DNA of 64,000 bases, from the NCBI GenBank assembly GCA_964603505.1, contig CAZRVT010000007.1:2320-66319 (forward strand), in the 5' to 3' direction. This DNA comes from an uncultured Holophagales bacterium (GTDB lineage: Bacteria; Acidobacteriota; Thermoanaerobaculia; UBA2201). Positions 17,878 to 34,412 of the stretch are shown here, piece after piece; positions within the stretch are counted from its first letter, which is position 1, and every line of letters starts with the position of its first letter. The notes under the pieces are model-generated. The model was not told where the DNA came from, did not search any database, and was given only the letters and a program-made list of their open reading frames with translations. The position numbers and the translations under genes are program-made.

Positions 17878-20616
17878 ATGCGCGATTGGGTCGTCCTGGT
17901 TCCCCTTGCCTCCTTGTTGCTGCCCGCCCCCCCGACATTCGCCTCCCACGACAGACCCGCAGACGCTCCGGGGTTCCCGGCCTCCCTCCGCCTGGTCGAA
18001 GACCTCGATCCCTCCGCTCCACCCGTGGACTTCCGGAAAACCTCCGATCTGGTGTCCTTGGGGGCGGCCGCTTATTTCCTCGGCGGGACGGGCGGCGGGA
18101 CCGGCCGCGAGACGGGATTATGGATGACCGACGGCTCGCCCGCAGGAACGCGGCTGGTGCGTTCCCTCTTGATGCCCAACGCCGATGGCGCGGCCTCCGA
18201 ACTGGTCGTCGCGGGCGAGCGGCTATTTTTCGTCGCCGGGAACGGTGGCCCCGGGGTGTATCTCTGGGTCAGCGACGGAACCGCGCAAGGCACCCGTCCC
18301 TTGGTTCCCGTCGTCGGCAGCTGGTTCGAACCGATTCGTCTCATCCCCTTGGACGACCAGGTGTTCTTCATGAACTATCCGAGCGATCCCTCCGCCGTCA
18401 CGGAGCTGTGGACGAGTGATGGAACCGAGTCGGGGACCTGTCGGCTCCGGGTGTTCAGGAATGCAGAGCGCTATTCCGTGGGCGCACTGACCGCCTGTAG
18501 GGGCAAACTCTATTTCCGCGGGTGGGACCAGGACGCAGGGGCCGAGCTTTGGACTAGCGATGGAACGACCTCCGGGACCCGAAGGGTTCGAGATATCCTT
18601 CCGGGACGCTCGGGGAGCTGCCCGACCGACCTGACCGCGTGGGGGGAACGGCTCTGCTTCAGCGCCATGGCGCGCAACGATGGGCTCTACGAATTGTGGG
18701 TCAGCGACGGCACGGAAGCCGGGACGGCGAGGATCCCCGACACGCCGGTGATGCAAAACGGCGATGTCCCGATCTTCGTGGGGGGGGGGTTCCTTTATTT
18801 CTGGGCCTACACGGCCGAACGGATTTACGGCTTCTGGCGGACCGACGGCCGCGCGGGCGGGACGGTATTCCTGAAGGCGATCGAAGTGCCGGGTGGGGAT
18901 CCCGGATACTGGGCCGAGCTCGCCTCGAACATCATCCTGTTCAACGGCTATGACTCGACACGAGGATACGAGTTATGGCGCTCGGACGGCACGCCGGAAG
19001 GGACCAGGCCGGTGGCGGATCTTCTTCCGGGGGCGGGTTCATCGTTTCCCTACGACCTGACCTCTCTGAACGGCCGGGTGTATTTCAGCGCCAGGGGGGC
19101 CTGGACGGGGATCGGTCTGTGGGGCACCGACGGGACGGAGGAGGGCACGGTCCGGCTCGGCGATCCCCCGCACCACCCGCAGAACCCCGAACAAATCCAG
19201 ACGTGGAGCGGCCGGCTCTGGTTCTTGGCCCTGCACAGCGCCTTCGGTGTTGAATTGTGGACCAGCGACGGCACCGACGCGGGGACCCGCCTCTTCGCCA
19301 ACCTCGCTGCGGACGCCGGCTCCTCCGTCATTGTATCCATGATCCCCTGGGGGCCCGGCGGAGCGATGCTGGAGACGGCGCGAACGGAGACGCTCCCTCA
19401 CCGGTTTTGGACCACCGACGGAACCGCGGAGGCGACCGTCCCGTTTTTCGAACTCGATCCCGAGGTGAGCTGGCGTATTTCAACCGATTTTTCTTCGACC
19501 AACGGTGTCGCCTTGTTCACTCTTCAGACCGTGGAGCTGGGGAACGAACTGTGGCGCACCGACGGCACCCCGGCCGGAACACGAGTGGTGTTGGACATCG
19601 TTTCCGGCCCCGCCGATTCCGTGGACTGGTCCTCCGTTCAAGGGGCGTTCCTGGAAACCGATTACTACTTTTCCGCCAGCGACGGCGTCCACGGTCTCGA
19701 GCCTTGGCGCACCGACGGCACCGCGACCGGCACCCGCATGGCGGCCGACGTCTGCACCGGCCCCCAGGAGAACAATCCCACCGCTTCCTCGTGGCCGGGC
19801 GGGTTCATCGCGGGAGGGGGCCGGGTTTTCTTCACCGCCCGGGGCGACGACGGGGACGCAGGGTGGTACGCCACGGACGGCACGGCCCCCGGCACGCGGC
19901 GGCTGGCCTCGTTCCTCGTGCCGTCGGACCGGATTGACATTCAGCCCCTCGCCGTCACCGGCGAAAAGGCCTTCCTGTTCACCCACGCGGAATGGAGCCC
20001 CTTTTGGGAGCTGTGGCGGAGCGACGGCACGCCCCAGGGAACCGAGCCCGTGGCTTTCCTCTATGTCTCCGCTTACCCCTACTGGGCCCCGGGCCCTCTG
20101 TTCGCCTTTCAAGAGCGGGTTTACTTCCAAGCCGCTCCGTATGATGGGGCCGAGCTGTGGGTCAGCGACGGTACGCCCCAGGGAACGGGCCTGCTGAAGG
20201 ACATCCGCGCCGGCGAGGGAGATTCTTCCCCCGCCGATTTCGCTGCGATGGGGGACCGCTTCTATTTCCGCGCCGACGACGGCGTCCACGGCGCGGAGCT
20301 TTGGACGAGCGATGGAACCGAGGCCGGGACCTATATGCTCGCGGACCTCTGTCCCGGCCTCTGCTCCGGCTATCCGATGGGGATGGCCTCTGACGTGGAG
20401 CGGATCCTCTTCGCCGCCACCGACGGGGTGCATGGGCACGAACTTTGGGTGACCGATGGAACGGCGGAGGGAACGGTGATGGTGGCGGACCTCCGGGGCG
20501 GTCCCGGATCCTCCTCCCCGGAGCGGATCACCCCCTCATGGCCGGCGATCTATTTCACCGCGGACGATGGCCGGACCGGGCGGGAACTCTGGCGCTGGGA
20601 CCCGGTCGCCGAATAG
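17878..20616 (+). CDS. ELWxxDGT-repeat exported beta-propeller protein
   Basis: About 17-18 copies of (E/G)LWx(S/T)DGT; signal-like N-terminus; more A/T-ending codons than neighbouring genes. Confidence 0.9.
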   Translation: MRDWVVLVPLASLLLPAPPTFASHDRPADAPGFPASLRLVEDLDPSAPPVDFRKTSDLVSLGAAAYFLGGTGGGTGRETGLWMTDGSPAGTRLVRSLLMPNADGAASELVVAGERLFFVAGNGGPGVYLWVSDGTAQGTRPLVPVVGSWFEPIRLIPLDDQVFFMNYPSDPSAVTELWTSDGTESGTCRLRVFRNAERYSVGALTACRGKLYFRGWDQDAGAELWTSDGTTSGTRRVRDILPGRSGSCPTDLTAWGERLCFSAMARNDGLYELWVSDGTEAGTARIPDTPVMQNGDVPIFVGGGFLYFWAYTAERIYGFWRTDGRAGGTVFLKAIEVPGGDPGYWAELASNIILFNGYDSTRGYELWRSDGTPEGTRPVADLLPGAGSSFPYDLTSLNGRVYFSARGAWTGIGLWGTDGTEEGTVRLGDPPHHPQNPEQIQTWSGRLWFLALHSAFGVELWTSDGTDAGTRLFANLAADAGSSVIVSMIPWGPGGAMLETARTETLPHRFWTTDGTAEATVPFFELDPEVSWRISTDFSSTNGVALFTLQTVELGNELWRTDGTPAGTRVVLDIVSGPADSVDWSSVQGAFLETDYYFSASDGVHGLEPWRTDGTATGTRMAADVCTGPQENNPTASSWPGGFIAGGGRVFFTARGDDGDAGWYATDGTAPGTRRLASFLVPSDRIDIQPLAVTGEKAFLFTHAEWSPFWELWRSDGTPQGTEPVAFLYVSAYPYWAPGPLFAFQERVYFQAAPYDGAELWVSDGTPQGTGLLKDIRAGEGDSSPADFAAMGDRFYFRADDGVHGAELWTSDGTEAGTYMLADLCPGLCSGYPMGMASDVERILFAATDGVHGHELWVTDGTAEGTVMVADLRGGPGSSSPERITPSWPAIYFTADDGRTGRELWRWDPVAE

Positions 20617-20670: not shown

Positions 20671-21744
20671 TTACTTGTACTTGATACAGAAGATGCGATA
20701 GGGCTCCTCCGGCTTCGGGGCAAGGTGGAGTTGCGATGTGGTAACGAAGAGGAGACCCTCGGGGCTGAGGGCGATGCTGTCTGGCCACTTCAGGACCGGG
20801 TCCTGCGCAAGGACGGAGAGGTTCCCCTTCGGGTCCACGCGGGTGACGGCGTTCTTTTCGATGGAGGCCAGGTAGAGGTTCCCCTCGGCGTCGGCCGCCA
20901 AGCCGCCGGAGGGGCCCGGCTCGGCGACCTTCTCCACGGCGGCCCCGATGCGGTCGTCGGGGACGAGGGGGTCGCGGAGCAGCCGCGTGGGGACCCGGTA
21001 GAGGGTCCGCCCCGCAAGGGCCTGATAATAGAGCCAGTCCCCCTTGGGAGCCAGGGCGACGGCGTCGGCATGCACCCGCTTCTTGAACTCCCGCCCCTCC
21101 ACGGTCACGACGGTCTCCTCGGCGCGGGTCGAGGGGTGCCCCTCGAGGACCCGCCAGGCGGCCCCCTCCTTCAGGTCCGCCACCAGGATCGCGCCGAGGC
21201 CCGAATCGGTGATGTAGGCGAGCCGCCTCTTCGTGTCGATGCGGACATCGTTCAGGTAGCTGTCGCGGGGGGCGGCGGTCGCGTCGAAGAGGATTTTAAG
21301 GGAGACCCGATTGGTCTTGAGGTCCACGCGGACCAGCTTCGCCCCGCCGGGCACCACCCCTTGGAACTCCGGGTTGGCCGCGTCGAGGACCCACAGCCCC
21401 CCGGCGTCGTCCGCCACGACGCTCTGGACGCAGATGAAATGGTCGGTGGGCGGGAGTCCCGGTTCCCAGCGGTTCCAATCGGCGTCCGGATAGGGCGTGG
21501 TCGCTCCGGACATCGCCACCTCCACCAGGGAGGGGCCGGCGGCGGACCCGCGGGGAAAGGAAGCGAAGAGCCGCCCGTCCGGAGCGATGGCGACGCCGGT
21601 CCATTGCCGATCGGAGCGGGCCACCTCTCGCAGGGACGCGGCCGCCTGGGGGGGCGGCGCGGGGCACAGCACCCCCGGGAGGATGCAGACGAGGATCAGC
21701 GCCATCGCCGCCGACGGGCACGGGAGGGCCTGCCGTGGTTCCAT
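20671..21744 (-). CDS. Yellow/major royal jelly protein (L-dopachrome tautomerase-related) family protein
   Basis: QWTGVAIAPDGRLFASFPR, FICVQSVVADD, LWVLD, SYLNDVRID, AYITDSG, LKWPDS; GGAGG RBS. Confidence 0.88.
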   Translation of the reverse strand: MEPRQALPCPSAAMALILVCILPGVLCPAPPPQAAASLREVARSDRQWTGVAIAPDGRLFASFPRGSAAGPSLVEVAMSGATTPYPDADWNRWEPGLPPTDHFICVQSVVADDAGGLWVLDAANPEFQGVVPGGAKLVRVDLKTNRVSLKILFDATAAPRDSYLNDVRIDTKRRLAYITDSGLGAILVADLKEGAAWRVLEGHPSTRAEETVVTVEGREFKKRVHADAVALAPKGDWLYYQALAGRTLYRVPTRLLRDPLVPDDRIGAAVEKVAEPGPSGGLAADAEGNLYLASIEKNAVTRVDPKGNLSVLAQDPVLKWPDSIALSPEGLLFVTTSQLHLAPKPEEPYRIFCIKYK

Positions 21745-22030
21745 GCGATCACCTCCTGGAGATTCTACGATCTATTGTAGCGCAGACCGGCTCCCACTTC
21801 TGGTCCTCTTCCCGGCAACCGAGTGGAGGCCGGACGCAACCCCGGTGCCCCCCATTCAAGGTCGGGACGACGCGGAATCTCCGAAAATGGGCCGATTTCG
21901 GCCCTCCCGGCCCCCTCGGCAACCCGGCATGCCGCTTGCTTGCGAGGGGAAATGGATCCGCCGGATGAATGAGAAGAGAGGGGGCCTCCTCCTGCCCTAC
22001 GGATCGTCCTTGAAATGATGGGAATCGAAA

Positions 22031-22060
22031 CCCGCCGGTCGACACCCCGCGGCCGGCGGG
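22031..22060 (-). terminator. Probable terminator of the AlkP-TPR gene cluster
   Basis: CCCGCCGGTC..GGCCGGCGGG stem; followed by TTTCGATT on the minus strand. Confidence 0.5.
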
Positions 22061-22062
22061 AT

Positions 22063-22085
22063 GCCCCGCTCCGGCGGGGCTTTTT
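22063..22085 (+). terminator. Intrinsic terminator on the + strand
   Basis: GCCCCGC-TCCG-GCGGGGC-TTTTT. Confidence 0.75.
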
Positions 22086-24817
22086 CATCGGCGCTCGCGG
22101 GCCCGCAACGCTTCGAGTTTCCGCCTCGCCTCGGCGTTCGAGGGCTCCGCGGCCAAGAGCGCATCAAGGACGGCGCGCGCTTCCGCCGTTCGGCCGAGGC
22201 GCTGGTAGGCGTCCGCCAGCGCCAGGTGGAGTTTGGCCCCCTGCAGGCCGCGGTCGCGGGCCTGGAGGAAGAGTTTCAGCGCCTCGCCGGCCCGGCCCGC
22301 CTCCAACAGCGCCGCGCCGTAGTTGAACCGCAGCTGAGCGTTGTCGGGCTGGGAGCGGAGCGCCTGTTCGAACACCGCCCTCGCCTCAGCGTCCCGACCC
22401 TGTGTTTGGAGCGCCACCGCCAGGTTGGCCAGGACGCCGCCGTTGTCGGGGTCGGAGGCCAGCACCTGCCGGAAGATCTCCTCGGCGATGCGGCCCAGGC
22501 CGTGGCGCAGGCAAACGATGCCCAGGGTGTTCATGGTTTGGATGGAGCCGCGGGAGGCGTCCCAGGTCTCCTTCAGCAACCGGGAGATGGCCTCCAGGTC
22601 GCGGCGGGCCGCCAGGCGCTTGAGGATCTCCTCCGCGGCCGCCGCGTTCGAGGGATCCAGTGCCCGGGCCCGTTCGAACCGGCGCATCGCCCCGTCCTCG
22701 TCCCCCTTCGCCGCGAGGAGCATCCCCTCGGCGACGGGCAGGAGGGGCTCCCCCTGCCAGGCTGGCCCCACCGCCGCCAGGACCGCAAGGGCTTCGTCCT
22801 CGGCCCCGATGCGGACGGCCTCCGCGGCCAGTTGGGTGAGCGTCTTCTCCGGCGGCCGGTCGGCCCCCCGGAGGGCCCGTTTGAGCCACGCGTAGGCCTC
22901 CCGGTGGTCGCCCCGCAGACCGTAGCACTGGGCCAGCGAATAGAGGCCGAGGGCGAAGTCGGGGCGGAGGTCGACGGCTCGGCGGTACTGCGCCATGGCC
23001 CCCTCCAGATCGCCGCGTTGGTAGAGGGTGTTCGCGAGGTTGTAGGCCTTGGAGAAGTCGTCGGCGGCGACCGTTTCTGTCGGCGCCCCGGGCCCTTGCG
23101 CGCGGCCGGCCGTCTGCGCGGCGCCGCCGATGTACCCGAGGGCCTGCAGTTCCTTCATCCGCTCCTCATCCAGCGCCACGGGCGCCGGGTCGCGCAGGGG
23201 CGGGGGGAGGAACTCGTAGGTGTCCACCCGGGGGCCCTCCGAACCGAAGGTGAAGGCCTCGGCCAGCGCCCGCCCCTTCATCTCCCGGGAAGCGGGGACG
23301 CCGAGGCAATGGAACAGGGTGGGGATCAGGTCGTAAATGGTGGCGTTTTCCACCTTCCCGGGCCGGACGCCCGGGCCCGCGATGACGAGGACGCCCGTCA
23401 GGCGGTGCCAGTCGGGGGCGCCGGTGCCGAAATCGTCGGGCCGCGAGGAGGGGCGCGCCTCGCCGGTGAAGAAGCCGTGGTCCGAAGCGATGATCCAGAC
23501 GGCGTCCCGAGGCCCTTCGCGCATCATGGCGCCGAGTTCCGCGTCCATCCATCGGTAAAACCGGGGGAGTGTATCGTGAAAGGCCCGGAAGTCCTCCTCG
23601 GACACCCGCGGCCGGCGGGGCGGGAGGAATTCGGCGAACCGGTGGGCCGCCGTGTCGGTCCCCTCGATGTAGTAAGCGAGCACGTCGAAGGGCTCCTTCA
23701 GGAGGACGCGGGTGGTGTTGAGGACGGAATGGGTGGAGGCGAGGATCTTGCGGAGGTGGTTGACGCGATCCCCGTGGAGGTCGCCCGACCGCACCCCCGC
23801 CTCCCACCGCCGCTCCAGCGCCCCACGATCCAGGTCCACGAACCGCCCCACCTCGTCGAAGGGGACCTGCTCGGCGCGCACCATCGCCGGGGCGAGTCGG
23901 GCCTCCGCGTCGGGGGGGTAGGTGTTGCCCGGGACGAGCTTCGGGGGTTCGATGCCGAACAGACTGAAGAAGAGGCGCTCCGTGACCATGGTGCCCCGAA
24001 TCCGCTCGGCCGGAAACGTGGCCCACCACCCCACCACGCTGGTCCGCAGCCGGAAGGCGGAGAGGATGTTCCAGAAGGCCTGCACCTTCCGGTAGTGGGA
24101 GGTGATGGGGGCGTCCTTTCCGGTGGCCGGGTCTCGGACGATGAAGTCCAGGACGCCGTGCTGATCGGGAGGGCGCGAGGTGGCGATGGAGGTCCAGAGC
24201 AGGGGGGAGAGGAGGGGCTTGGCGGAGGCCAGGTCGGCCCAGGCGCCCTCGCGCTTGAGACGGGCGAAGGTGGGCATCCTCCCCTCGCCGATGAGGCGGT
24301 CCACGAGGATCCAGTCCAAGGCGTCCAAGCCGCAGAACACCACCCTCCGTCCCGTGGGGCGGTAGGCGGCCCTCACCGCCTCGGGGAGTTCCCCCTCGAT
24401 GTCGGTGCTCAGCGACAGCACGCGCAGCGGCAGGGAAGCCAGCCGCTCCTCCAACGCCCGCCGCAGACCGCCGTCCGCCGGGTACTCCGTCAGCGCGGTC
24501 AAGGCCTCGCGCGGGGCCTCCGGCGGCACGGGGTTGCGGGCGAGCCGCTCGGGGTCCCAGGCCACCTCCGCCCGCACCTCCCCCTCTTTGCGCGCCCCCT
24601 CGCGGGTGAGCAGGGAGAGCCGGACCGAGACGGCGGCCCGCTCGGGGTAGACCCGGGTCCGGCTCCAGGGGGCCTTGGCATGCCATCCGGGGTCCAGGAC
24701 GCGCCCCCCCGCGACGGCGAACGCCCCCTCGGGGACCCGCGCCACGGAGAGCCAGCCGGCCGCCAGGAGCGCGGCCGCCGCTGCCGGGACGAGCCATCTC
24801 TTCATGTCGGGAGCCAT
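22085..24817 (-). CDS. Membrane-anchored alkaline-phosphatase-superfamily (NPP/phosphodiesterase-like) protein with C-terminal TPRs (start 24817 or 24805)
   Basis: CGLDALDW, LLSPLLWTSIATS, DQHGVLDF, GTDTAAHRF, IIASDHGF, WHRLTGVL, EERMKELQALGYIGG, then many TPRs. Confidence 0.88.
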   Translation of the reverse strand: MAPDMKRWLVPAAAAALLAAGWLSVARVPEGAFAVAGGRVLDPGWHAKAPWSRTRVYPERAAVSVRLSLLTREGARKEGEVRAEVAWDPERLARNPVPPEAPREALTALTEYPADGGLRRALEERLASLPLRVLSLSTDIEGELPEAVRAAYRPTGRRVVFCGLDALDWILVDRLIGEGRMPTFARLKREGAWADLASAKPLLSPLLWTSIATSRPPDQHGVLDFIVRDPATGKDAPITSHYRKVQAFWNILSAFRLRTSVVGWWATFPAERIRGTMVTERLFFSLFGIEPPKLVPGNTYPPDAEARLAPAMVRAEQVPFDEVGRFVDLDRGALERRWEAGVRSGDLHGDRVNHLRKILASTHSVLNTTRVLLKEPFDVLAYYIEGTDTAAHRFAEFLPPRRPRVSEEDFRAFHDTLPRFYRWMDAELGAMMREGPRDAVWIIASDHGFFTGEARPSSRPDDFGTGAPDWHRLTGVLVIAGPGVRPGKVENATIYDLIPTLFHCLGVPASREMKGRALAEAFTFGSEGPRVDTYEFLPPPLRDPAPVALDEERMKELQALGYIGGAAQTAGRAQGPGAPTETVAADDFSKAYNLANTLYQRGDLEGAMAQYRRAVDLRPDFALGLYSLAQCYGLRGDHREAYAWLKRALRGADRPPEKTLTQLAAEAVRIGAEDEALAVLAAVGPAWQGEPLLPVAEGMLLAAKGDEDGAMRRFERARALDPSNAAAAEEILKRLAARRDLEAISRLLKETWDASRGSIQTMNTLGIVCLRHGLGRIAEEIFRQVLASDPDNGGVLANLAVALQTQGRDAEARAVFEQALRSQPDNAQLRFNYGAALLEAGRAGEALKLFLQARDRGLQGAKLHLALADAYQRLGRTAEARAVLDALLAAEPSNAEARRKLEALRARERR

Positions 24818-34396: not shown

Positions 34397-34412
34397 AGCA
34401 AGTTTCGTGCCA
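34397..34412 (-). promoter_or_regulatory. Sigma54 (-24/-12) promoter
   Basis: Minus strand TGGCACG-AAAC-TTGCT, matching the RpoN consensus, about 125 nt upstream of the receptor ATG. Confidence 0.85.

What the first reader, a model, noticed from the sequence alone, without database searches (positions are those of the whole stretch)
21785..22085. Orphan + strand terminator reveals a ~300-nt structured transcript with no ORF
Seen: both flanking genes are on the minus strand, yet a canonical + strand terminator sits at 22063-22085, next to a separate minus-strand hairpin (22031-22060). The interval contains long-range complementarity (GTGGAGGCCGG with CCGGTCGACAC; CCCATTCAAGG with CCTTGAAATGATGGG) enclosing local hairpins. 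The 22035-22045 segment can pair in two alternative ways. I could not fit tRNA, tmRNA, RNase P or SRP consensus motifs. Inferred: an unannotated ncRNA, perhaps a divergent 6S-like or RNA-polymerase-binding RNA, or a new class.
Basis: partly seen in the sequence, partly recalled or inferred. Interest (0 to 1): 0.62.

Follow-up and report, generated by a model that had tools for sequence, protein, structure and literature searches.

The report
Sigma-54-driven small RNA gene in Holophagales
The gap between two minus-strand genes holds a previously undescribed small RNA gene of about 135 bases with its own enhancer sites, sigma-54 promoter and terminator; it is conserved in one uncultured Acidobacteria genus and is not the 300-base 6S-like RNA first proposed.

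Summary
The + strand terminator (22063-22085) and the hairpin beside it (22031-22060) are real. The proposed 300-nt structured transcript is not supported.

Eight full homologues and one partial were collected from a Holophagales genus and from metagenomes. They share one architecture:
- two dyad sites (GCAAC-N3-GNTGC-like) at fixed positions, 21815-21827 and 21836-21848;
- a sigma-54 -24/-12 element, GGCATGCCGCTTGCT, at 21926-21940;
- a transcribed unit of 128-147 nt, here 21951-22085.

The unit has a weakly structured 5' half with a conserved AGAGAG...UUUCCUCCCGCC motif. This is followed by a covarying hairpin whose 8-nt loop ACACCCCG is identical in seven of eight copies, then an intrinsic terminator.

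Conservation follows these boundaries: spacer 0.28, promoter 0.70, RNA 3' half 0.84, downstream 0.31. The "long-range pairings" join untranscribed enhancer or spacer DNA to the RNA and are not conserved.

rpoN, about 15 enhancer-binding proteins, Hfq and a canonical 6S RNA are all encoded elsewhere in the genome. Rfam has no matching family.

Best reading: a new enhancer-dependent, trans-acting sRNA with a C-rich seed, analogous to Qrr or GlmY in its control and to 6C, sX13 or RsaE in its seed. Targets and the activator remain unknown.

The parts
21815..21827 (.). Upstream activator site 1 (GCAAC-CGA-GTGGA), a degenerate dyad. It starts 111 bp before the -24 GG, about -136 from the predicted start.
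   Evidence: A GCAAC-N3-G.T.. site starts at -111 to -114 from the -24 GG in all 9 homologous loci.
21836..21848 (.). Upstream activator site 2 (GCAAC-CCC-GGTGC), a dyad. It starts 90 bp before the -24 GG, about -115 from the predicted start.
   Evidence: Found at -90 or -91 in all 9 loci. The combined two-site pattern occurs once in the 3.04-Mb genome.
21926..21940 (+). Sigma-54 type -24/-12 promoter element GGCATGCCGCTTGCT.
   Evidence: GGCAY-N5-WTGCW is kept in all 9 loci with a variable spacer. There are 28 such sites in the whole genome and 2 in the window against 0.52 expected. Identity of the promoter block is 0.70 against 0.22-0.31 for its surroundings.
21951..22085 (+). Predicted small RNA, 135 nt. 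The start is inferred as 12 nt after the C of the -12 GC; the end is the U-tract.
   Evidence: The unit is 128-147 nt in 8 homologues. Model R1 scores 75-132 bits on the four homologues it was not built from (L084, L092, L093, L095). In four loci the conserved UCGGAU starts within 1 nt of the predicted +1. There is no conserved ORF.
21985..21997 (+). C-rich motif CCUCCUCCUGCCC, the window's version of the conserved UUUCCUCCCGCC. It is complementary to a Shine-Dalgarno sequence.
   Evidence: Conserved in the alignments. The 5' halves do not fold better than shuffles in 6 of 7 copies.
22031..22060 (+). Stem-loop 3: an 11-bp stem with the 8-nt loop ACACCCCG (22042-22049).
   Evidence: UCGACACCCCGCG is identical in 7 of 8 copies; the eighth reads CACCCCCCCG. 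Three stem pairs show compensatory changes and 98.7% of cells are paired.
22063..22085 (+). Intrinsic terminator GCCCCGC-UCCG-GCGGGGC followed by U5.
   Evidence: It is conserved in all 8 full copies with 5-8 U and with G-U pairs at its base on the + strand.

Best explanation
The interval is a complete, self-contained gene for an enhancer-dependent small regulatory RNA.

Control (inferred). An enhancer-binding protein (bEBP) that has not been identified binds two dyad sites about 136 and 115 bp upstream of the start. It activates sigma-54 RNA polymerase at the -24/-12 element at 21926-21940.

Transcript (inferred). Transcription starts near 21951 and stops at the intrinsic terminator at 22085, giving an RNA of about 135 nt.

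Action (inferred, less certain). The RNA probably acts in trans by base pairing, likely with Hfq. It would pair through its invariant C-rich hairpin loop (ACACCCCG), possibly also through the CCUCCCGCC motif in its loosely folded 5' half. Targets would be G-rich stretches such as ribosome-binding sites, repressing their translation.

Shown here: the conserved architecture, the covarying hairpin, the strand, and the presence of rpoN, bEBPs and Hfq.

Inferred: that transcription occurs, the exact start, the activator, the mode of action and the targets.
For: 1. Homologues. Eight full copies and one partial copy come from the same-genus genome G001 ('Holophagales bacterium UBA2201') and from metagenome or Logan contigs.
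2. Promoter. All nine keep GGCAY-N5-WTGCW at a fixed distance from the hairpin, while the 5-nt spacer varies. Only 28 such sites exist in 3.04 Mb counted on both strands.
3. Enhancer sites. All nine keep two GCAAC dyads, at -111 to -114 and at -90 or -91 from the -24 GG.
4. Conservation profile. Mean pairwise identity is 0.35 further upstream, 0.47 for the enhancer sites, 0.28 for the spacer, 0.70 for the promoter, 0.22 for -11 to -1, 0.42 for the RNA 5' half, 0.84 for the RNA 3' half and 0.31 downstream.
5. Structure of the 3' domain. 97.3% of cells are paired against 39-50% in the slid controls. Four pairs have compensatory changes. None of 500 shuffles reaches the covariation score.
6. Strand. 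G-U pairs and the U-tract are on the + strand only.
7. Independence from neighbours. Flanking genes differ between loci, and the downstream gene is convergent in most of them.
8. Supporting genes. rpoN, about 15 bEBP genes and Hfq are present in G000 and G001.
9. Coding. There is no conserved ORF. L034 and L092 are nearly identical but differ by a 1-nt indel in the 5' half.
Against:
- The homologues come from one narrow clade, so covariation rests on a few changes.
- The 5' halves fold no better than shuffles in 6 of 7 copies (z from +0.87 to -1.11, one at -2.77), and their helices are not in a consistent register.
- The window's -24 element reads CGGCAT rather than TGGCAC.
- A crude target scan showed no enrichment of loop-complementary sites at translation starts over internal controls.
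- No bEBP gene lies on this contig, and none has the dyad motif nearby.
- An invariant 13-nt loop could equally be a protein-binding site.
Confidence: 0.72

Rival explanations
1. One reading: a structured non-coding RNA of about 300 nt spanning 21785-22085, perhaps a divergent 6S-like or polymerase-binding RNA.
For: The 301-nt stretch folds somewhat better than shuffles (z -2.14). Long-range complementarity exists in this one sequence (I4).
Against: - The upstream 165 nt contains a conserved sigma-54 promoter and positionally fixed dyad sites. Apart from these it is about 28-35% identical between homologues.
- The long-range arms are not conserved.
- There is no Rfam 6S hit here.
- A canonical 6S RNA is at G000:C1:94062-94240 (60.7 bits).
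Confidence: 0.04
2. The same sigma-54-driven RNA is made, but it works by binding or sequestering a protein through its invariant 13-nt hairpin loop rather than by pairing with mRNAs.
For: UCGACACCCCGCG is identical in 7 of 8 copies, including the closing pairs. This is more conserved than a typical seed. No enrichment of complementary sites was found at translation starts.
Against: - There is a single copy of the motif per RNA, unlike the multi-site sponges CsrB and RsmX/Y/Z.
- By my hand count from the sequences, GGA motifs number 2-5 per RNA, about what chance gives.
- The rsmX hit scores only 18.8 bits against a gathering score of 56.
- L093 tolerates a loop change that keeps the C-run, as expected for a C-rich seed.
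Confidence: 0.15
3. There is no independent RNA. The conserved hairpin and terminator are a bidirectional termination module for the convergent genes, and the sigma-54-like motif is coincidental.
For: In most loci the downstream gene is convergent. In this window the minus-strand version of the hairpin is followed by UUUCGAUU.
Against: - The convergent genes differ between loci, and in G001 the downstream gene is co-oriented.
- The minus-strand U-rich tail is absent in the other homologues.
- The G-U pairs and the U-tract are specific to the + strand.
- Conservation extends 135 nt and includes a promoter and enhancer sites at fixed distances in 9 of 9 loci.
Confidence: 0.04
4. The sigma-54 promoter drives a cis-acting leader or attenuator, or a small protein gene, rather than a trans-acting sRNA.
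For: In G001 a co-oriented TPR-thioredoxin gene starts about 113 nt after the terminator.
Against: - In the window, L084, L092, L093 and L095 no co-oriented gene follows.
- The G001 gene has its own TACAAT box after the terminator.
- ORFs within the unit differ in frame and start, and a 1-nt indel separates near-identical copies.
Confidence: 0.05

Closest known systems
Qrr sRNAs of Vibrio (LuxO, sigma-54)
   Same: - A sigma-54 promoter with dyad activator sites upstream of a short, terminator-ended sRNA gene. One dedicated bEBP controls the sRNA (PMC10162802, PMC3730234).
- Hfq is encoded in the genome.
   Different: - No sequence or structure similarity: there is no Rfam hit.
- Single copy, whereas Qrr has 1-5 copies.
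- The dyad here is GCAAC-N3-GNTGC. From my own knowledge, the LuxO site is TTGCA-N3-TGCAA.
- The phylum is Acidobacteriota.
GlmY/GlmZ (GlrR, sigma-54) of Enterobacteriaceae
   Same: Enhancer-dependent sRNA genes with activator sites about 100-240 bp upstream, and an sRNA of 150-200 nt with a terminator (PMC3045617).
   Different: - No homology.
- GlmY acts as a protein decoy and GlmZ activates glmS. Nothing here links this RNA to glmS.
NcS25 of Burkholderia cenocepacia
   Same: A sigma-54-dependent trans-acting sRNA that represses a target at the translation start (PMC10117139).
   Different: No Rfam or sequence relation. Its host is a betaproteobacterium.
C-rich-loop sRNAs: 6C (Actinobacteria), sX13 (Xanthomonas), RsaE/RoxS (Firmicutes)
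   Same: An unpaired C-run displayed in a hairpin loop, used in those RNAs to pair with G-rich ribosome-binding regions (PMC6486639, PMC2790875, PMC5419742). The host genome is also GC-rich.
   Different: - sX13 scores only 19.8 bits against a gathering score of 50, and the alignment is driven by the terminator. There are no 6C or RsaE hits at E<=10.
- This RNA has one conserved C-rich loop rather than two to four.
- Those RNAs are not known to be sigma-54 dependent.

Membership tests
Any Rfam 15 family | Score at or above the family's gathering threshold | tested here: not met
   No matches in the window or in seven homologous loci. The best sub-threshold hit is isrB, 21.7 bits against 35, and it is driven by the terminator.
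6S RNA (RF00013) | Covariance-model match: an RNA of about 180 nt with closing stems around a central bubble | tested here: not met
   No 6S hit in 21600-22250 at E<=10. The genome's 6S RNA is at C1:94062-94240, 60.7 bits.
Sigma-54-dependent promoter | GG at -24 and GC at -12 with exact spacing, within the TGGCAC-N5-TTGCW consensus | tested here: met
   GGCATGCCGCTTGCT at 21926-21940. The element is conserved in 9 of 9 loci.
Sigma-54-dependent promoter | rpoN and enhancer-binding proteins encoded in the genome | tested here: met
   Sigma54_DBD scores 196.7 bits. About 15 strong Sigma54_activat loci are present.
Sigma-54-dependent promoter | Upstream activator sites about 80-150 bp from the promoter | tested here: met
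   Two dyads at fixed positions, -111 to -114 and -90 or -91 from the -24 GG, in 9 of 9 loci.
Sigma-54-dependent promoter | Transcription depends on RpoN and on an activator | not testable with these tools
   This needs genetics or in-vitro transcription.
Intrinsic (Rho-independent) terminator | GC-rich hairpin followed by a U-tract on the transcribed strand | tested here: met
   Seven G-C pairs, a 4-nt loop and U5. It is conserved with 5-8 U in 8 copies.
Hfq-dependent trans-acting sRNA | Hfq present; terminator hairpin with a 3' U-tail; single-stranded seed | tested here: inconclusive
   Hfq is encoded (78.5 bits), and the U-tail and an unpaired loop are present. Binding was not tested, and no targets were found.
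sX13 / 6C / RsaE C-rich sRNA families | Homology to the family model | tested here: not met
   sX13 scores 19.8 bits against 50. There is no 6C or RsaE hit. Only the C-rich loop principle is shared.
CsrA/RsmA-sequestering RNAs (RsmX/Y/Z, CsrB) | Many GGA motifs in loops; model match | tested here: not met
   rsmX scores 18.8 bits against 56. By hand count on the sequences there are 2-5 GGA per RNA, near chance.

The most novel reading that the evidence does not exclude
This is the first sigma-54/enhancer-controlled sRNA circuit described in Acidobacteriota. A dedicated bEBP would have this sRNA gene as its only strong binding target in the genome: the two-site pattern is unique in 3.04 Mb. That would make it a one-regulator, one-sRNA relay like LuxO-Qrr or GlrR-GlmY. 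It would feed a single environmental signal into post-transcriptional control through a C-rich seed directed at Shine-Dalgarno-like sequences.
Probability: 0.5. Interest if true: 0.5.

Novelty: new member of a known kind. Interest (0 to 1): 0.4.

Why it matters
Almost nothing is known about riboregulation in Acidobacteriota. The literature searches returned no paper on sRNAs of Holophagae or on sigma-54-dependent sRNAs of this phylum. Here a complete regulatory unit can be read from sequence alone: enhancer sites, sigma-54 promoter, sRNA and terminator. This gives a defined handle for finding the activator and the signal, and for testing whether C-rich anti-Shine-Dalgarno seeds are a general solution in GC-rich bacteria. 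The practical importance is modest, because the RNA is confined to one uncultured genus and belongs to a known type of regulator.

Tried and rejected
1. Rfam, at gathering and permissive thresholds, on the window and on homologous loci. Nothing real was found.
2. Folding of the full 301 nt. Only modest z-scores on both strands.
3. Model R1 searched over 400 genomes of the class. Only G000 and G001 are real. All other hits align just the common terminator CCCCGCUCCGGCGGGG.
4. The enhancer-plus-promoter pattern searched over the same 400 genomes. Hits were at or below the reversed-pattern control.
5. Pattern scans:
   - Genome contigs gave G001 plus two chance hits.
   - Metagenome contigs gave 43 hits, of which two were true, L034 and L036.
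6. Consensus structure for the 5' domain. MAFFT with RNAalifold gave only a weak helix, per-sequence minimum-energy helices are not in register, and z-scores are near zero. The 5' structure is left open.
7. Target prediction with RNAduplex on crude ORF calls. There was no enrichment at translation starts over internal windows, and many of the ORFs are spurious in this 67.5% GC genome. Exact-complement scans were uninformative.
8. Search for the dyad motif near the genome's bEBP genes. None was found.
9. A second genomic copy of the 13-mer loop sequence, at C35:13620, lies inside a coding region and is a chance match.
10. Sequencing-run look-up.
11. Small-ORF hypothesis. Rejected.

Full report
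**The sequence.** The window comes from a 3.04-Mb, 67.5% GC metagenome-assembled genome. Its only genus mate in the reference set is 'Holophagales bacterium UBA2201' (G001). The interval 21745-22084 lies between two minus-strand ORFs. One is an MRJP/SGL beta-propeller (20671-21744). The other is a type-I phosphodiesterase fused to TPR repeats (22085-24817). So is the neighbouring 11-bp hairpin at 22031-22060. Rfam 15 has nothing at gathering score in the whole window. With permissive settings only terminator-driven hits appear: isrB 21.7 bits against 35, sX13 19.8 against 50, rsmX 18.8 against 56. The 301-nt stretch folds only slightly better than shuffles (z -2.14 on +, -1.41 on -).

**Homologues.**
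- In G001 the MRJP orthologue (67% identity) is followed by an intergenic region. That region keeps the hairpin loop and the terminator although the next gene is different and co-oriented.
- A pattern built on the loop and terminator found only G001 among 185,579 species genomes, plus two chance hits.
- The same kind of pattern found two true copies among 43 metagenome hits, L034 and L036.
- Orthologues of the MRJP protein at 61-70% identity led to four more full copies (L084, L092, L093 which equals L094, and L095) and one copy cut by a contig end (L083).
- A covariance model built from the first four sequences scores the new ones at 75-128 bits.
- L085, a 62%-identical MRJP locus, lacks the element.
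- L036 has the element but no MRJP gene. There it follows the ELWxxDGT-repeat gene that in the window lies one gene further away (58% identity).
- The downstream gene differs between loci and is convergent in most of them.

The element therefore behaves as a unit of its own.

**Promoter and enhancer.** When the nine loci are anchored on one motif they all show GGCA(C/T)-N5-(T/A)TGC(T/A) with a variable 5-nt spacer. This is the -24/-12 signature of sigma-54 promoters; the consensus TGGCAC-N5-TTGCW is established knowledge. In the window the motif is GGCATGCCGCTTGCT at 21926-21940. The motif occurs 28 times in the genome on both strands. Most of the other occurrences have the look of true sigma-54 promoters. 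It occurs twice in the window against 0.52 expected. The other site, at 34397-34411 on the minus strand, is the TonB-receptor promoter noted earlier in this scan.

Upstream, every locus has two GCAAC-N3-G.T..-type dyads at fixed positions: -111 to -114 and -90 or -91 from the -24 GG. In the window these are 21815-21827 and 21836-21848, about -136 and -115 from the predicted start. From my own knowledge this geometry resembles the NtrC sites of glnAp2. The two-site pattern is unique in the genome. rpoN and about 15 enhancer-binding proteins are encoded in G000 and G001.

**The RNA.** I placed +1 twelve nucleotides after the C of the -12 GC, which gives 21951. The units are then 128-147 nt long. 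In four loci the conserved 5' sequence UCGGAU begins within one nucleotide of that point, while the 11 nt before it are unconserved.

Mean pairwise identity by segment:

| Segment | Identity |
|---|---|
| Further upstream | 0.35 |
| Enhancer sites | 0.47 |
| Spacer | 0.28 |
| Promoter | 0.70 |
| -11 to -1 | 0.22 |
| RNA 5' half | 0.42 |
| RNA 3' half | 0.84 |
| Downstream of terminator | 0.31 |

Conservation thus starts and stops where the model says the transcript starts and stops.

The 3' domain consists of a stem-loop and the terminator. The 8-nt loop ACACCCCG and its closing UCG/CGA are identical in seven of eight copies. L093 reads CACCCCCCCG and keeps the C-run. On the eight-sequence alignment 97.3% of pair cells are standard pairs, against 39-50% when partners are slid by 1-3 columns. 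Four pairs show changes on both sides, and none of 500 shuffles reaches the observed covariation score (earlier). G-U pairs at the terminator base and in the hairpin, and the U-tract, mark the + strand as the RNA strand.

The 5' half carries conserved AGAGAG and UUUCCUCCCGCC motifs. It has no helix in a consistent register, and it folds no better than shuffles in six of seven copies. I leave its structure open.

No ORF is conserved. The nearly identical L034 and L092 differ by a 1-nt indel in the 5' half.

GTGGAGGCCGG (21824-21834) overlaps enhancer site 1. CCCATTCAAGG (21853-21863) lies in the unconserved spacer. Both are upstream of the promoter, so they are not expected to be in the RNA. 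The 'minus-strand hairpin' is stem-loop 3 of the + strand RNA. Its U-rich minus-strand tail is present only in this window. In the window it may incidentally help to terminate the TPR gene.

**Distribution.** The covariance model found the RNA once each in G000 and G001 and nowhere else among 400 genomes sampled from the class. The other hits align only the common terminator. The enhancer-plus-promoter pattern is at control level outside the genus. The family mates G002 and G003 and the order mate G004 lack both the RNA and the MRJP orthologue.

**Mechanism.** The architecture is that of the enhancer-dependent sRNA genes qrr (LuxO) and glmY/glmZ (GlrR) (PMC10162802, PMC3730234, PMC3045617) and of NcS25 (PMC10117139). 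An unpaired C-run in a hairpin loop is how 6C, RsaE/RoxS and sX13 pair with G-rich ribosome-binding regions (PMC6486639, PMC2790875, PMC5419742). Hfq is encoded, and the RNA ends in the hairpin plus U-tail that Hfq-dependent sRNAs share. I therefore propose a trans-acting, probably Hfq-assisted, repressor that pairs through the loop and perhaps through the CCUCCCGCC motif.

This last step is inference. A crude duplex scan found no enrichment at translation starts. The invariant 13-nt loop could instead bind a protein, and I keep that as a rival at 0.15. A 6S-like role is not supported, since the canonical 6S RNA is elsewhere.

**Limits.** All copies come from one narrow clade. The activator, the signal and the targets are unknown.

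**Verdict.** This is a real, previously undescribed sRNA gene of a known regulatory kind.

Noticed in passing
window 34397-34411 (-): A second sigma-54 -24/-12 element, GGCACGAAACTTGCT. It corresponds to the TonB-receptor promoter noted earlier in this scan.
   Followed up: partly
window 21773-21779: TATTGTA on the + strand, which reads TACAATA on the minus strand. It lies about 25 nt upstream of the MRJP start codon and is conserved in win, L002, L034, L084, L093 and L083. It is a likely -10 box of the divergent MRJP gene, close to enhancer site 1, so the activator might also affect MRJP transcription.
   Followed up: no
L085:1160-1240 (- strand): This MRJP locus lacks the sRNA. In its place is a TATAAT box followed by a C-rich stretch of about 65 nt that ends in a terminator-like hairpin (CCCCCCGCGCCCUCC...GGAGGCGACGCGGGGGAUUUCU). 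It may be an unrelated C-rich sRNA in the same position.
   Followed up: no
G000:C1:94062-94240 (+), locus L110: Canonical 6S RNA of this genome (RF00013, 60.7 bits). G001 has one as well.
   Followed up: yes
window 21949-21965 and 22070-22086: The 5' end of the predicted RNA is 76% complementary to the 3' half of the terminator plus the U-tract (17 nt). By eye this is not conserved in L084, so it is probably incidental.
   Followed up: partly
window 17878-20616 (+): A 912-aa ELWxxDGT-repeat protein (TIGR04534, 16 repeats). Its 58%-identical orthologue directly precedes the sRNA in L036, where the MRJP gene is absent.
   Followed up: partly
L034 vs L092: Two metagenome contigs from different collections carry almost identical copies of the locus. 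The copies differ by a 1-nt indel (GGCGACG vs GGCGGACG) in the RNA 5' half.
   Followed up: yes
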